A stretch of DNA of 9,776 bases from Octopus sinensis (lineage: Eukaryota). Each line of letters begins with the position of its first letter. Position 1 is the stretch's first letter. A program made the translations under genes and the position numbers. The notes beneath the pieces are model-generated. The model saw only the letters and a program-made list of their open reading frames with translations, was not told the DNA's origin and made no database searches. The stretch spans positions 1 through 9,776 of the forward strand of contig NW_021827666.1 in NCBI RefSeq assembly GCF_006345805.1. Direction: 5' to 3'. Shown here piece by piece: positions 1,331 to 9,750 of this stretch.

Positions 1331-1370
<40 letters not shown>

Positions 1371-1395
1371 CCGAGCAACGCGGGCGATACTGCTA

Positions 1396-1431
<36 letters not shown>

Positions 1432-1462
1432 TATATATATATATTATATATATATATATATA
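1329..1462. repeat. (TA)n tracts interrupted by an inverted copy of the Helitron 3' end (1368-1398)
   Basis: AATCCGAGCAACGCGGGCGATACTGCTAGTA is the reverse complement of 1461-1492 apart from a 1-nt indel. Confidence 0.9.
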
Positions 1463-1848
1463 CTAGCAGTATCGCCCGGCGTTGCTCGGATTGTAAGGGA
1501 AATAACTATACAGCATTTTTAGAGAGTTATAGCCAAAAAATAGCATAAAATGCATTAAAAATGAAAAAAAATATGATGGTAAATTTTTTTAATCGTTGAC
1601 TCATCGTAGACATTTTTAGAGAGTTACTTCCCTTTAAAAAATATGCATGAAAATGGAAAAAAATGATGGTAAATTTTTTAAATCGTAGACTCATCGTAGA
1701 CGCGCGCTAATACCCAGAAGGGCTCGATATGAATCACGACTATAAGATACCCGGTTTTGGTTACACTGCACCGCAAAATGTGGGAGTAGTTAGGAATCTA
1801 AATCGAAGGGGACAGACACTCACACAACTACAGTTTTATATATAAAGA
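1463..1848 (-). mobile_element. Non-autonomous Helitron (386 bp)
   Basis: The minus strand begins A|TCTTTATATATAAAA and ends CCGAGCAACGCCGGG-CGATACTG-CTAG|T. This gives 5' TC, a GC-rich subterminal hairpin-like motif, 3' CTAG, an AT target and no TSD. There is an internal ~90-97 bp tandem duplication (1514-1610 / 1611-1700). Confidence 0.85.
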
Positions 1849-3310: not shown

Positions 3311-4060
3311 GGCGGAGAGGTGACAGACACGTTTGCACGCCGGGCGAAATGCTTAGCCGTATTTCGTCTGCCGCTACGTTCTGAGTTCAAATTCCGCCGA
3401 GGTTGACTTTGCCTTTCATCCTTTCGGGGTCGATTAAATAAGTACCAGTTACGCACTGGGGTCGATATAATCGACTTAATCCGTTTGTCTGTCCTTGTTT
3501 GTCCTCTCTGTGTTTAGCCCCTTGTGGGTAGTAAAGAAAAAGGTATTTCGTCTGCCGCTACGTTCTGAGTTCAAATTCCGCCGAATTCGACTTTGCCTTT
3601 CATCCTTTCGGGGTCGATTAAATAAGTACCAGTTACACACTGGTGTTGATATAATCGACTTAATCCGTTTGCCTGTCCTTGTTTGTCCTCTTTGTGTTTA
3701 GCCCCTTGTGGGTAGTAAAGAAATAGGTATTTCGTCTGCCGTTACGTTCTGAGTTCAAATTCCGCCGAGGTCGACTTTGCCTTTCATCCTTTCGGGGTCG
3801 ATTAAATAAGTACCAGTTAGGCACTGGGGTCGATATAATCGACTTAATTCGTTTGTCTGTCCTTGTTTGTCCCCTCTATGTTTAGCCCCTTGTGGGTAGT
3901 AAAGAAATAGGCATTTCATTTCTTTCATGTTCTGGGTTCAAATTTCGCCGATGTTAACTTTGTCTTTCATCCTTTCGGATCTGATAAAACAAGTACTGGA
4001 ATCTTTGCAATAGGCTTAGTCCCTTCCCCGAAATTGTTAGCCTTATGCCAAAATTTAAAA
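3311..4060 (+). mobile_element. tRNA-derived SINE family B: one head followed by three 184-bp tandem body units and a fourth diverged unit
   Basis: The head is GGCGGAGAGGTGACAGA...GCTTAGCC and the B box GAGTTCAAATTCC is at 3383-3395. The central GCCTTTCATCCTTTCGGGGTCGATTAAATAAGTACCAG resembles a widespread SINE central domain (Meta-like, from memory). Units start at 3359, 3543, 3727 and 3911. Confidence 0.88.
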
Positions 4061-4245: not shown

Positions 4246-4548
4246 GTTTGTTCCTTCTCGTGCCATGCCTAGCTCATAAGGGCCGGTTTCCCGGTTTCTT
4301 GGCGTATAGGTTACCCACCTGGACGGGACGCCAGTCCATCGCAGGTGAGCTGCAAGATGCAGGTGGAAAGAGTGAGAGAAAGTTGTGGCGAAAGAGTCAG
4401 CAGAAGTTTCACCATTACCTTCTGCCGGAGCCGCGTGGAGCTTAGGTGTTTTCGCTCATAAACACACACATCGTCCGGTCTGAGATTCGAACCCGCGATC
4501 CCTCGACCACGAGTCCGTTGCTCTAAACACTAGGCCATGTGCCTCCAC
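4246..4548 (-). mobile_element. tRNA-derived SINE family C, copy 1 of a head-to-tail dimer
   Basis: The minus strand has GTGGAGGCACATGGCCTAGTG (A box), GGGTTCGAATCTC (B box, 4494-4482) and CCTGCGATGGACTGGCGTCCCGTCCAGG (V-domain-like, 4345-4318). Confidence 0.88.
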
Positions 4549-4574
4549 ACACACACGCACACATTAATATAGTA

Positions 4575-4879
4575 GTTTGTTCCTTCTCTAGCCACCCCTG
4601 GCTCATAAGGACCGGTTTCCCGGTTTCCTTGGCGTATAGGTTTCCCTCCTGGACGGGACGCCAGTCCATCGCAGGTGAGCTACAAGATGCAGGAGGAAAG
4701 AATGAGAGAAAGTTGTGGCGAAAGAGTCAGCAGAGGTTTCGCCATTACCTTCTGCCGGAGCCGCGTGGAGCTTAGGTGTTTTCGCTCATAAACACACACA
4801 ACGTCCGGTCTGAGATTCGAAACCGCGATCCTTCGACCGCGAGTTCGCTGGCTCTAACCACAAAGCCATGTGCCTCCAC
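4575..4879 (-). mobile_element. tRNA-derived SINE family C, copy 2 of the dimer
   Basis: Highly similar to 4246-4548 over its full length. The pair is flanked by the direct repeat ATTCTAATAATT (4232-4243 and 4881-4892). Confidence 0.88.
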
Positions 4880-5114: not shown

Positions 5115-5775
5115 AGCAATGGAGCGGCCGTCCCTGTCAATCCTTCCGTTACTTTACGTTTCATGAAATCTCGCTTTCAAACCGGACGTTAATCATCAGC
5201 CATGATGATTTACAGCTTTCAATGCTACGAAGCTGTAAAGCCATATTTTCTTCTTTCTCTTTTGTCTCATTATCAGATTGGTATATCTACTCTTCTTTTC
5301 CCCTTTTCTCTACTTCATATCAATCGTTTCATTTAAAAATTGACTGGGACATTTTCCATAAGGAGCATATACCATTTGGTATGAATTATGAGTTACCTTG
5401 CTTTGGTCATAAACTGTAAAATTAACCGACTAACTGAAAATTTCTCAGGCTACTTTCGATTGATTTATTTAGTATTTTGGTTAAAGCAGTCTTCTGCTAA
5501 TGCGTTAAAAGAATCATAACATTTGTATGTGTATGTCTGTAAGTGTATCTGTCAGTCAGTTTGTCTGGCTGTCTGTACGTATACATACATATATATAGTT
5601 GAAATTTATAGAAAAACAAAAGACGATGACAGGTGTATGAACAAGCAAGTATATTAGTTTGATACTCGAGAAAATGAAACAGACTTTTAGGTTTCGTACC
5701 TACGCTCTTCAACAGAAAGGAATAAGAGAAAATAAAAAAAGACTTGTAGATTTCAGCAGTCCAACATGTCGAATC

Positions 5776-6251: not shown

Positions 6252-6410
6252 CTACATCGACCCAAATACTAGACTGGTACATATTTTGTCCACCCCGAAA
6301 GGACGAAAGGCAATATCTACCTCGGCGAAATTTGAACACAAAATGTAAACGCGGACTAAATGCCGCTAAGCACTCTGTCCGGTGGACTAGCGAATCTAAC
6401 ACCTCGCCTT
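6252..6410 (-). mobile_element. Older, diverged SINE family B copy
   Basis: CTGGTAC...CCCCGAAAGGACGAAAGGCAA...CCTCGGCGAAATTTGAAC...GCTAAGCA is the reverse complement of the 3311-3465 motifs. Confidence 0.85.
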
Positions 6411-6525: not shown

Positions 6526-6529
<4 letters not shown>

Positions 6530-6820
6530 TCCGTAATAATAAGGGTGAATTAATTAATTTGGAATAATTATCAATTACACCAAGTAGTCTTCGGCATGTA
6601 AAAGCCTCATTCGAGGAAAATTTAAGTAATACTAAGCAATAAACAGGGTTAGCAACGAATTGCCTTACCCCATACCGAATTTAGAAATAGCAGTCAAAGA
6701 GTTATAGCTATTTCTTCTACTAAAAAGGGAGATCTCAGTAAAAACAGCATTGGAAGGCAGACACAAACAGGTAAGAGAGAATGAATTGACGGCAATCTAT
6801 CATACATTTTAAGTTATCTA

Positions 6821-6923
6821 CTACGGACGTACGTTTCGAAATCAAGTTTTTGGAAAGCATAAGAATTAAATTTAAATATTAAATAATTCTATCTTACCGA
6901 AACTTCTTTTCTCTTCAGCGTAG
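6821..6923 (-). ncRNA. Type I hammerhead ribozyme with extended stem II
   Basis: The minus strand reads CTACG-CTGAAGA-[GAAAAGAAGTTT...AAACTTGATTTC, 74 nt]-GAAAC-GTAC-GTC^CGTAG. Stem I is CTACG/CGTAG, the CUGANGA and GAAA cores are intact, and stem III ACGTACGT is palindromic. Predicted cleavage is between 6826 and 6825. Confidence 0.8.
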
Positions 6924-7415
6924 AATACTATAATCATAAATGATTATATATTGAATTTTGAGATACTAGAAGGCACCAACTCAACTCAGTATCAGAGTGA
7001 GCTAGAATCCGCAACTAGTATCACCAAATCAATGTGTGAATGAAACGATTGTGTCACCAGCCCCTTCCCACCCGCGTGTAGCCAAAACAAGATGCTGTGG
7101 TCATCTACTGAGATAAAATATGGTTTCCGTAATAATGAAGGGTGAAATTAATTAATTTGGAATAATTATCAATTACACCAAGTAGTCTTCGGCATGTAAA
7201 AGCCTCATTCGAGGAAAATTTAAGTAATACTAAGCAATAAAGGGTTAGCAACGAATTGCCTTACCACATACCGAATTTAGAAATAGCAGTCAAAAGAGTT
7301 ATAGCTATTTCTTCTACTAAAAAGGGAGATCTCAGTAAAAACAGCAATTGGAAGGCAGACACAAACAGGTAAGAGAGAATGAATTGACGGCAATCTATCA
7401 TACATTTTAAGTTAT

Positions 7416-7520
7416 CTCCGACGTACGTTTCGAAATCAAGTTTTTAGGAAAGCATAAGAATTAAATATTAAATATTAAATAATTCTATCTTACCGAAACT
7501 TCTTTTCTCTTCAGCGGTAG
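7416..7520 (-). ncRNA. Second copy of the extended hammerhead, with stem I disrupted by indels
   Basis: CTGAAGA (7514-7508) and CGAAACGTACGTC (7432-7420) are intact. The flanks read CTACCG / GGAG, so stem I pairs poorly. Confidence 0.55.
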
Positions 7521-7933
7521 AATACTATAATCATACATGATATTATTGAATTTTGAGATACTAGAAGGCACCAACTCAACTCAGTATCAGAGCGAGCTAG
7601 AATCCGCAACTAGTATCACCAAATTCAATGTGTGAATGAAACGATTGTGTCACCAGCCCCTTCCCACCCGCGTGTAGCCAAAACAAGATGCTGTGGTCAT
7701 TACTGAGATAAAGTATGGTTATCCGTAATAATGAAGGGGTGGGAGGGGGGGGCTGGTGACACAATCGTTTCATTCACACTGAATTTGGTGATACTAGTTG
7801 CGGATTCTAGCTCGCTCTGATACTGAGTTGAGTTGGTGCCTTCTAGTATCTCAAAATTCAAATATAATCATTTATGATTATAGTATTCTACGCTGGAAGA
7901 GAAAAGAAGTTTCGGTTAAGATAGAATTATTTA

Positions 7934-7963
<30 letters not shown>

Positions 7964-7968
<5 letters not shown>

Positions 7969-8550
7969 GAAATATTAAATTTTACTAAGTCTCTATAAAA
8001 GAAATTACCGGCAGCGTTTACTGGAAATTAATTGTTATCGCCATATTAATATGGCATTCTTATAGATATAAGAATAATCGCTGCCGCTGGTTAGCTCCAT
8101 GAGGCCACCGCCTTAAGATAGCTATTGATACACGATCTGTATCCATTATAACCTTCGAACAAGGGAGGTCAGCCGCTTCACACTGCCAGTCCGACAAGTG
8201 GATGTATTCCACTGAAACTAGGTAAATAGAAACCTTCGAACAGAGACTCAGTGGCGACACCTGCGGGGTCTCACTGCGCTACATTGACAAGGGGCAATAC
8301 CCCGAAACGCGTCTGTAGCTGTCGGACTGGCAGTGTGAAGCGGCTGACCTCCCTTGTTCGAAGGTTATAATGGATACAGATCGTGTATCAATAGCTATCT
8401 TAAGGCGGTGGCCTCATGGAGCTAACCAGCGGCAGCGATTATTCTTATATCTATAAGAATGCATATTAATATGGCGATAACAATTATTTTCCATAAACGC
8501 TGCCGCGTATTTCTTTTATAGAGACTTAGTAATTTTAATATTTCTATTAT
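7964..8550 (+). mobile_element. Foldback Penelope-like element: ~232-bp inverted arms around a 123-bp spacer containing a hammerhead
   Basis: 7964-8196 is the reverse complement of 8320-8550, essentially perfect in the inner part with a few indels distally. (TA)n lies on both flanks. Confidence 0.8.
8278..8319 (+). ncRNA. Minimal type I hammerhead ribozyme, U3-A8 core variant
   Basis: GCTACA-TTGACAA-GGGG-CAATA-CCCC-GAAAC-GC-GTC^TGTAGC. It has a 6-bp stem I, a 4-bp stem II and a palindromic ACGCGT stem III. The core is UUGACAA instead of CUGANGA. Predicted cleavage is after 8313. Confidence 0.85.
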
Positions 8551-8682
8551 ATATATATAGATATATATATATATATATATATACTGGTTTTGTATATAAA
8601 CACACACATACACAAACTTATATAAATACACATAATCACTATGTATGTATGTATATTCTATGTATATATATATATATATATA

Positions 8683-8718
<36 letters not shown>

Positions 8719-8730
8719 ATAATAATATAA
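8548..8730. repeat. (TA)n-rich compound microsatellite
   Basis: Direct reading of the sequence. Confidence 0.9.
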
Positions 8731-8734
8731 TGTA

Positions 8735-9270
8735 AGGATTCTCCCCACATTCGATGACGGATGAGGGTTGTGCAATCCTTTGCTGAACAACCATACAGAT
8801 GATTTAGTTTTAATACTGATCAAATGGTTGTGTAGACATAAGCTCACTCCCTCCACCAAATCGACATTACCTGTACAGGTGCCACAGGTACCACATGTCA
8901 GACGATGAAATGATCACAGAGGAACGTGAAATGAAGTGTGTGTTTTGCTCAAGAACACAATGATGCAACGCCCGGTCTGAGCTGGGAATTGAACTCACGA
9001 TCTGACAATCATGAGTGCAACACTCTAACCCAGTGCTTTTTAAACTTTTTGCTGGAGCGGAACCCCAAGGAAGCATTCCAGTAGCTCGGAGAACCCCTGT
9101 GCAATAATTTAATAGTCTTATGCACACATGTCTGTATAGGAAAATTAAAAATTACTGCAGATTTTAGCAGTTTTGTAACTTCTTGCGGAACCCCTGGACT
9201 GTACTGGCGGAACCCTAAGGTTCCGCGGAACCCTGGTTGAAAACCACTGCTCTAACCAATAAGCCATGTA
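8735..9270 (-). mobile_element. Old tRNA-derived SINE family D (CORE-like), interrupted by a hAT MITE
   Basis: After removing the MITE, the minus strand reads CATGGCTTATTGGTTAGAGTGTTGCACTCATGATTG...GTGAGTTCAATTCCC (A and B boxes)...GACCGGGCG...TGTGTTCTTGAGCAAAACAC. The head is related to family C. The 3' boundary is approximate. Confidence 0.72.
9031..9249. mobile_element. hAT (Charlie-like) MITE, 219 bp
   Basis: The TIRs are CAGTGCTTTTTAAAC / GGTTGAAAACCACTG. There is a perfect 8-bp TSD CTCTAACC (9023-9030 and 9250-9257) and repeated subterminal GGAACCC motifs. Confidence 0.92.
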
Positions 9271-9520: not shown

Positions 9521-9750
9521 TCCTCTACTCTAGGAACATCGACTCCAGTACGCAACTGGTTCTTAATTTATCGATCCCGAAAGGATGAAAGGCAAAGTCG
9601 ACCTCGGCGGAATTTGAACTCAGAACGTAACGGCAGACGAAATGCGGCAAAGCCGACATCGGCTGAATTTGAAATCAGAAAGTAAGGGCAGACTAAATAC
9701 CGCTAGGCATTTCGCCCGGCGTGCTAATGTTTCTGCCAGCTTGCCGCCTT
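9521..9750 (-). mobile_element. SINE family B copy with an internal 55-bp tandem duplication
   Basis: The minus-strand head is AAGGCGGCAAGCTGGCAGAAACATTAGCACGCCGGGCGAAATGC. 9591-9645 is repeated at 9646-9700. Confidence 0.88.

What the first reader, a model, noticed from the sequence alone, without database searches (positions are those of the whole stretch)
7964..8550. ~590-bp palindrome with a U3-A8 minimal hammerhead in its loop
Seen: the ~232-bp inverted arms enclose a 123-bp spacer, and the right arm begins at 8320, immediately after stem I of the hammerhead (8278-8319). The core has two coordinated changes (C3U and G8A). Known: positions 3 and 8 form a tertiary Watson-Crick pair, so U3-A8 preserves it, and tail-out inverted pseudo-LTRs are typical of Penelope insertions. 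Inference: the compensatory pair suggests selection for catalysis in the source element. A transcript would form a ~230-bp dsRNA hairpin that can be nicked in its loop, making it a potential substrate for ADAR editing (extensive in coleoids) or small-RNA processing. It looks unrelated in sequence to the adjacent 596-bp family.
Basis: partly seen in the sequence, partly recalled or inferred. Interest (0 to 1): 0.75.

Follow-up and report, generated by a model that had tools for sequence, protein, structure and literature searches.

The report
Mirror-image retrozyme insertion, swapped hammerhead core
The palindrome is two overlapping pieces of a very common 364-base non-coding repeat joined head to head; the repeat carries a predicted self-cutting hammerhead RNA with an already described core swap and was likely pasted in by Penelope-type retrotransposon enzymes, so this is an ordinary insertion of a known kind of element.

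Summary
In detail: arms 7964-8196 and 8320-8550 (227 of 235 columns identical) and a type I hammerhead at 8278-8319 with U3-A8. It is not a unique structure. Both arms and the spacer are pieces of a 364-bp, ORF-free tandem unit with at least 1,449 exact hammerhead copies in three subfamilies, all U3-A8. In a 68-locus sample, 39 of 73 inserts are head-to-head like this one, mostly beside TA repeats, and their outer ends fall at two fixed sites about 62 bp apart: the Penelope 'tail' signature. The unit fits an animal non-LTR retrozyme likely mobilised by a Penelope-like element; the partner was not found. U3-A8 is in print for natural and Penelope hammerheads. The cut site is not a strong stop for reverse transcription (47 of 56 arms read through). 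One oddity: this copy has the long end on both sides (0 of 58 other inverted inserts) and identical inner arms, and no read confirms it. Cleavage, transcription of this locus, editing and small RNAs are untested. The scan found this family before on other DNA.

The parts
7964..8196 (-). Left arm: inverted, 5'-truncated copy of the unit, positions m7-m238 (m1 = first base after the predicted cut); outer end at site B
8194..8196 (.). 3-bp overlap (microhomology) at the head-to-head junction
   Evidence: arm 7964-8196 and direct piece 8194-8550 overlap; 28 of 39 sampled pairs overlap by 1-8 bp
8197..8550 (+). Direct copy, 354 bp of the 364-bp unit (m248-m364 then m1-m237); holds the 123-bp spacer and the right arm; outer end at site B
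8278..8319 (+). Type I hammerhead motif with U3 (8284) and A8 (8289), palindromic stem III 8307-8312; predicted cut between 8313 and 8314
   Evidence: sequence; numbering and cut site from the established hammerhead consensus
8231..8366 (+). Predicted long interrupted helix that extends stem I (m282-335 with m1-53); in a transcript of this copy it would compete with the palindrome
   Evidence: z -5.9; double-sided changes between subfamilies
8486..8550 (+). 'Tail' between end site A (about m173-179) and end site B (about m238-239), about 62 bp
7935..7963 (.). Left TA microsatellite flank (likely target)
   Evidence: most sampled ends abut TA repeats
8551..8582 (.). Right TA microsatellite flank (likely target)

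Best explanation
The palindrome is a head-to-head pair of two overlapping pieces of a 364-bp non-coding tandem repeat that carries a U3-A8 type I hammerhead motif, and it likely arose when Penelope-type reverse transcriptase/endonuclease, supplied in trans, cut a TA microsatellite and likely primed DNA synthesis from both target ends on the repeat's RNA. Shown: unit, copy numbers, geometry, two fixed outer ends, TA flanks, no ORF, conserved core. Inferred: the family is a non-LTR retrozyme; its RNA is transcribed as multimers, cut by hammerheads working in pairs through the palindromic stem III, and likely circularised; each target end starts a cDNA at site A or B; the two cDNAs stop at variable points and are joined by short microhomology. 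This copy has one hammerhead, is about 10 bp short of a full unit, and its arm would pair with the part needed for the native fold, so it is likely a dead end. The hairpin is a by-product, not a selected structure.
For: Tandem period 359-364 bp, arrays of up to 9 anchors. 190 + 1,193 + 66 exact hammerhead matches, reversed controls 0. Sample of 68 loci picked by a 3' motif: 73 inserts, 32 simple (16 end at B, 15 at A, 1 elsewhere), 39 head-to-head (32 A+B, 1 A+A, 0 B+B, 6 with an off-site end), 2 complex left out; A+B in 11 of 11 and 5 of 8 in the other subfamilies. This matches the 'tail present at one end only' and the inverted 5'-truncated copy of Penelope-like elements (PMC8557442, PMC3846280; passages) and the two internal start sites and two-strand priming shown in vitro (PMC11167929). 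An ORF-bearing family in the same genome shows the same two ends, about 70 bp apart, on TA repeats (11 short, 18 long in 29 of 30 loci). Circular monomers fold with z -4.2 to -9.4 (4 of 4). U3 and A8 in 59 of 59 flank-anchored copies. Units of one array differ by 1.1% against 3.2% between arrays. Size, GC 40-43% and fold match mussel and axolotl retrozymes (PMC7229834).
Against: No autonomous partner sharing sequence was found: the unit matched none of the two coding families' ends apart from its own insertions (60 loci). The predicted cut site is not a clear stop: 47 of 56 arms that reach it read through, hazard 0.65 against 0.38 per 100 nt, p 0.065, so there is no genomic footprint of cleavage of linear RNA. 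This copy breaks the family rule: B+B was seen in 0 of 58 other head-to-head inserts. The count of pairs with double-sided changes is not above the shuffle control (5 against 3.7, 81 of 500), and few independent events underlie it. Only 1 of 9 predicted Xenopus retrozyme dimers cleaved in vitro (10.64898/2026.07.22.740005), so a motif does not prove activity. Array homogeneity also fits local DNA duplication.
Confidence: 0.8

Rival explanations
1. The family is real, but this copy's second B end and identical arms come from a later or different event: fold-back copying of one cDNA, or gene conversion between arms.
For: B+B in 0 of 58 other inverted inserts; 0 of 165 differences between arms against a mean of 1.8%; the only rare allele shared by both arms in 74 rare-allele sites is this copy's. 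L008 also has identical arms (223 of 223) and an atypical end.
Against: Four other arm pairs of 30 also show 0 differences, so youth explains identity; both outer ends sit exactly at site B and the junction has the usual short overlap.
Confidence: 0.2
2. The palindrome is an assembly artefact (fold-back or chimeric long read, or polishing) on a small unplaced contig.
For: The contig is 9,776 bp and unplaced; one-base indels are frequent in the outer arms and between the neighbouring 596-bp copies (13 gap openings in 602 columns); atypical B+B; no listed piece bridges the junction.
Against: The mirror stops at the element's own end site plus the TA repeat; the flanks beyond are not mirrored. 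Head-to-head inserts are common on chromosome-size contigs (39 of 73).
Confidence: 0.07
3. The unit is the pseudo-LTR of an autonomous Penelope-like element, and the copies are 5'-truncated ends of it.
For: U3-A8 hammerheads are described in Schistosoma Penelope repeats, also as close inverted pairs (PMC4209133); retrozymes are reported to be kin to pseudo-LTRs.
Against: Where arms are longer than one unit, what lies upstream is another unit, in arrays of up to 9; the upstream flanks printed for arms that stop at m28-58 show no shared coding sequence; the hammerhead has the canonical, not the minimal, architecture.
Confidence: 0.08
4. The locus is a host-useful hairpin RNA (editing or small-RNA substrate) that the ribozyme nicks in its loop.
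For: A transcript would fold into a long duplex with stem I intact on top (predicted). Contigs of four runs guessed to be RNA lie on the family unit.
Against: No sign of conservation or transcription of this locus; such hairpins are about half of all inserts; a lone hammerhead with a 2-bp stem III is expected to cut poorly without a partner (PMC4209133, PMC7229834).
Confidence: 0.04
5. A MITE-like DNA transposon with long terminal inverted repeats.
For: Long inverted arms around a short spacer.
Against: Arm length and junction differ at nearly every locus, 32 of 73 inserts have no second arm, and the two outer ends are usually different sites.
Confidence: 0.01

Closest known systems
Animal non-LTR retrozymes (PMC7229834, parts 2-3 of 6 and passages read; bioRxiv 10.64898/2026.07.22.740005, parts 1-3 of 5 read; supplements not seen)
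   Same: ORF-free tandem unit of 350-390 bp as in mussel, one canonical type I hammerhead per unit, GC under 50%, strongly self-paired predicted circle, dispersed monomers to multimers, coexistence with Penelope-like elements.
   Different: U3-A8 core fixed in the family; RNA circles and cleavage not shown here; the word 'inverted' does not occur in the main text of PMC7229834, whereas here over half of the inserts are head-to-head with two fixed ends.
Penelope-like element insertions: inverted 5'-truncated copy, optional tail, microsatellite bias (PMC8557442, PMC3846280, passages) and two internal start sites of Poseidon from Anolis (PMC11167929, parts 1-2 of 4)
   Same: Tails-out inverted pair, tail at one end only in 32 of 33 scorable pairs, AT-rich targets, read-through of the hammerhead site.
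   Different: No RT-GIY-YIG ORF; tail about 62 bp against 30-40 bp in print; this copy has the tail at both ends.
U3-A8 hammerheads: natural covariants (PMC3088659, passages) and about 1,300 minimal motifs tied to Schistosoma Cercyon elements (PMC4209133, parts 1-2 of 4)
   Same: The same core swap; reported as active in vitro in earlier work cited there (that paper was seen only in the reference list).
   Different: Here it sits in a canonical 6-bp stem I / 4-bp stem II hammerhead of a tandem unit, not in the minimal form with a long stem II.

Membership tests
Animal non-LTR retrozyme | Type I hammerhead motif in each repeat unit | tested here: met
   26 distinct full monomers each end in the motif (they were cut at its 3' half, so only the 5' half is a test); U3 and A8 in 59 of 59 flank-anchored copies
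Animal non-LTR retrozyme | Tandem unit of 150-450 bp, from monomers to multimers | tested here: met
   Period 353-364 bp, up to 9 anchors in an array. The window copy itself is not a tandem.
Animal non-LTR retrozyme | No protein-coding capacity | tested here: met
   No ORF of 100 aa inside the unit; the one frame that overlaps runs out into TA repeats
Animal non-LTR retrozyme | GC below 50% and strongly self-paired circular fold | tested here: met
   GC 0.40-0.43, circular z -4.2 to -9.4 in 4 of 4 monomers; a prediction
Animal non-LTR retrozyme | No LTR, primer-binding site or polypurine tract | not tested
   No LTR-like structure in the parsed inserts; PBS and PPT were not searched
Animal non-LTR retrozyme | Self-cleavage as monomer or dimer | not testable with these tools
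   Needs an in vitro assay; cofold predicts the paired stem III of a dimer
Animal non-LTR retrozyme | Expressed as monomer-size linear and circular RNA | tested here: inconclusive
   Only contigs of runs guessed to be RNA were available; they cannot show strand, ends or circles
Penelope-type insertion | Inverted 5'-truncated copy at the 5' end, tails outward | tested here: met
   Window; 39 of 73 sampled inserts
Penelope-type insertion | Two fixed 3' ends; tail usually at one end only | tested here: met
   Family: 32 of 33 scorable pairs are A+B. The window copy is the exception (B+B).
Penelope-type insertion | AT-rich or microsatellite target | tested here: met
   TA repeats on both sides of the window copy and after most listed ends (read by eye, not tallied)
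Autonomous Penelope-like element | RT and GIY-YIG ORF between pseudo-LTRs | tested here: not met
   None in the window; sampled arms consist of unit sequence only
Autonomous Penelope-like element | A coding partner that shares the unit's end signals | tested here: inconclusive
   Two coding families checked at 30 loci each, no shared sequence; other families not examined
Minimal Penelope hammerhead (PMC4209133) | Stem II 7-8 bp, stem I 4-5 bp, extra base before stem II | tested here: not met
   Stem I 6 bp, stem II 4 bp, no extra base

The most novel reading that the evidence does not exclude
One Penelope protein dimer primes both ends of the cut target on a single, circular retrozyme RNA, one subunit at site A and one at site B. 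This would explain the near-strict A+B pairing (32 of 33, where independent choice gives half), the 5 of 32 pairs whose B arm stops 24-32 nt short of site A, the read-through of the ribozyme site, a 2-nt insertion at that site repeated in all 3 units of one array, and an array that repeats a two-unit pattern three times. The family would then be a natural test bed for how retrozyme circles are copied into genomes, and this B+B copy a rare exception.
Probability: 0.35. Interest if true: 0.55.

Novelty: new member of a known kind. Interest (0 to 1): 0.28.

Why it matters
As a locus it matters little: it is one of many such insertions. As a family it ties an ORF-free hammerhead repeat to the Penelope two-site priming signature, which supports in a mollusc-type genome the proposed dependence of retrozymes on Penelope-like elements, and it offers over a thousand natural U3-A8 hammerheads in three subfamilies for testing whether the swapped core cleaves in a dimer. 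I did not find this family in print: a search for octopus + Penelope + hammerhead listed 4 of 5 papers, none about it by title or abstract; PMC7229834 has no 'octopus' or 'cephalopod' in its main text; one search gave nothing further. Supplements of PMC7229834 and PMC4209133 were not read and may list cephalopod motifs.

Tried and rejected
Twin priming on a ribozyme-cut linear RNA: suggested by this copy (left arm stops 6 nt from the cut, direct piece starts 7-10 nt after site B) but not supported by the sample; arm starts are unrelated to the other arm's end in most pairs and the cut is not a significant stop. A second element type behind the pile of stops at m30-57 (27 of 103 arms; window chosen after seeing the data): the upstream flanks share nothing; a stall at the predicted long helix is my guess. 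C3-G8 sister family: 3 single C3-A8 copies only and 3 matches without a stem II. Rfam: no hammerhead hit. Autonomous partner: not found; the 717-aa ORF of one candidate family had no Pfam or PDB match, and I call it Penelope-like from RT and GIY-YIG-like motifs recalled from memory; the other gave a weak GIY-YIG hit below cut-off. Allele or haplotig of this contig: none. Sequencing runs: no RNA holder listed; no piece listed that bridges this junction; no cover at 8551-8800 (skipped repeats). Editing: contigs of a multicopy family cannot show it. Similar-sequence look-up in earlier findings: nothing. In my notes I called the stem III variant with a 3-nt duplication palindromic; it is not a perfect palindrome.

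Full report
Observation. The arms 7964-8196 and 8320-8550 align with 227 identities, 2 mismatches and 6 gap columns; the inner 143 bp are perfect and enclose 123 bp. The type I hammerhead is at 8278-8319: 6-bp stem I, core U3 U4 G5 A6 C7 A8 A9, 4-bp stem II, GAA, a 2-bp stem III that with its loop forms the palindrome ACGCGT, and C17 at 8313 (numbering from the established consensus). Rfam misses it. By the definitions of PMC4209133 (parts 1-2 of 4 read) this is the canonical metazoan type I form, not the minimal Penelope form. The mirror stops at the TA repeats; the flanks beyond are not mirrored.

What it is made of. A DNA search of the window's genome (2.72 Gb; the window is a whole unplaced contig of 9,776 bp) scored 40 of 1,969 candidates and gave 111 matches. 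Arms and spacer belong to one tandem unit of 359-364 bp. With m1 as the first base after the predicted cut, the window is an inverted piece m7-m238 followed by a direct piece m245-m364-m1-m237, overlapping by 3 bp. The unit has no ORF. Exact hammerhead matches number 190 for the window's form, 1,193 with another base at position 7 and 66 for a third form; reversed controls gave 0. The subfamilies are about 86% identical. I take the animal to be octopus-like from genome size, contig number and earlier scan notes; this was not tested.

The ribozyme. Anchoring on flanks only, U3 and A8 are present in 59 of 59 copies (part of these loci came from a search that included the motif, and related copies are not independent). 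In four public DNA runs the only core change listed at 10% or more is at position 7, the free position (62-84% of depth). No C3-G8 form was found: 3 single C3-A8 copies and 3 matches without stem II. Among 20 loci of the third subfamily, stem III reads ACGT in 4, ACATGT in 5, ACGT plus a 3-nt duplication at the cut in 9, and is broken in 2: the palindrome needed for a double hammerhead is kept with other letters. Circular monomers fold far better than shuffles (z -9.0, -9.4, -4.2, -6.5), with a long helix extending stem I. On 14 monomers this helix has double-sided changes at three clean column pairs (11/334, 20/324, 49/296); cells with such changes exceed all 500 shuffles, but the number of pairs does not (81 of 500), and relatedness inflates the first. 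So selection on an RNA structure is likely; cleavage is not shown. U3-A8 is in print as a natural covariant (PMC3088659, passages) and in Schistosoma Penelope repeats (PMC4209133).

How it inserts. I took the first 100 of 364 matches to a 3' motif, fetched the 68 loci and parsed them against a natural multimer. Of 73 inserts, 32 are simple 5'-truncated copies (16 end at site B, about m239; 15 at site A, about m177; 1 elsewhere), 39 are head-to-head pairs, and 2 complex ones were left out. Of the 39, 32 are A+B, 1 is A+A, none is B+B, and 6 have an off-site end; 32 of 33 against an even chance gives p 8e-9. The other subfamilies give A+B in 11 of 11 and 5 of 8. Most ends abut TA repeats. This is the Penelope pattern: an inverted 5'-truncated copy and a tail at one end only (PMC8557442, PMC3846280; passages), explained in vitro by two internal start sites and priming on both target strands (PMC11167929, parts 1-2 of 4). 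A young family with a 717-aa ORF in the same genome has the same two ends, about 70 bp apart, on TA repeats (11 short and 18 long in 29 of 30 loci); I class it as Penelope-like from recalled motifs, since Pfam and PDB gave no match. It shares no sequence with the unit, so the partner is unknown.

Results against a simple cleavage model. If the template were RNA cut by the ribozyme, arms should stop at m1. They mostly do not: 47 of 56 arms that reach the site read through, and the stop rate there (11 stops, 0.65 per 100 nt) is not clearly above the mean (0.38; p 0.065). The largest pile of stops is at m30-57 (27 of 103 arms), on the 3' strand of the long helix. The template is therefore likely uncut multimer or circle. 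Units within an array differ by 1.1% (54 pairs) against 3.2% between arrays (352 pairs); one array repeats a 2-nt insertion at the cut site in all 3 units, one alternates two unit types three times, each with a change in a hammerhead stem. This fits rolling copying of circles but also local duplication.

What is odd about this copy. It has site B at both ends, seen in 0 of 58 other head-to-head inserts (39 + 11 + 8). Its arms differ at 0 of 165 inner positions against a mean of 1.8% over 30 pairs, and it holds the only rare allele shared by both arms among 74 rare-allele sites. Youth, fold-back copying, gene conversion or an assembly effect could each explain this. The outer-arm indels look like long-read noise, as between the neighbouring 596-bp copies. 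No piece listed from four DNA runs bridges the junction and no second copy of the flank tested is in the assembly, so the locus is unconfirmed.

Function. The copy has one hammerhead and lacks about 10 bp of the unit, so it cannot release a monomer; in a transcript the left arm would pair with m7-m238 (predicted) and displace the native helix. Contigs of four runs guessed to be RNA cover 30, 19, 26 and 25 of 30 bins of a family dimer, a weak hint of family expression that says nothing on this locus, strand, editing or circles. The editing and small-RNA ideas remain untested.

Comparison and verdict. The unit meets the sequence-level features of animal non-LTR retrozymes (PMC7229834; bioRxiv 10.64898/2026.07.22.740005); cleavage and circles are untested, and in that preprint only 1 of 9 dimers cleaved. 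It works like a Penelope insertion but is not an autonomous element. Earlier, unreviewed notes of this scan describe what appears to be the same family in this and other genomes; I looked at them after reaching this reading. Verdict: real as assembled, ordinary, new member of a known kind; interest 0.28.

Noticed in passing
window 6527-7735 (two copies, element on - strand) and 7737-7946 (inverted piece): The 596-bp family has the same head-to-head geometry, no ORF, and a C3-G8 type I hammerhead motif on the - strand (about 6820-6924 and 7418-7520) with a very long stem II insert and a palindromic stem III; likely a second retrozyme-like family. The inverted piece breaks off inside the stem II insert at the TA repeat. 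A 75% relative lies at 1004-1205.
   Followed up: partly
window 5690-5715, - strand: Hammerhead-like motif of another repeat with position 6 apparently changed and a short stem II; a cleaner copy is in L027. Read by eye.
   Followed up: no
window 1370-1490: Short inverted pair (about 28-bp arms) around a TA repeat; it gives spurious miRNA hits in Rfam below gathering score.
   Followed up: no
window 3359-3978, 4287-4850, 6254-6371, 9536-9750: Other repeat families: a 184-bp tandem (3.4 copies) with dispersed inverted relatives, and a 330-bp-spaced direct pair.
   Followed up: no
L120:4112-4332 and L077:3977-4063: Two outward-facing arms enclose unrelated DNA (about 220 bp in L120, a TCTA repeat in L077) instead of meeting directly.
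   Followed up: partly
L273 and L274: Higher-order periodicity in arrays: strict two-unit alternation in L273, partial four-unit repeat in L274.
   Followed up: partly
L258:796-2946 and L228-L257: Young family with an intact 717-aa RT plus GIY-YIG-like ORF, two 3' ends about 70 bp apart, TA targets and a hammerhead-like motif near its end; no Pfam match.
   Followed up: partly
L002:1142/1679, runs X11 and X17: An opposite-strand joint close to the predicted cut site appears in contigs of two runs guessed to be RNA, from two studies: possibly a transcribed head-to-head copy elsewhere.
   Followed up: no
window 8247 and 8272: Two letters of this copy differ from nearly all other copies and from the four DNA runs: private changes or assembly errors in the long helix.
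   Followed up: partly
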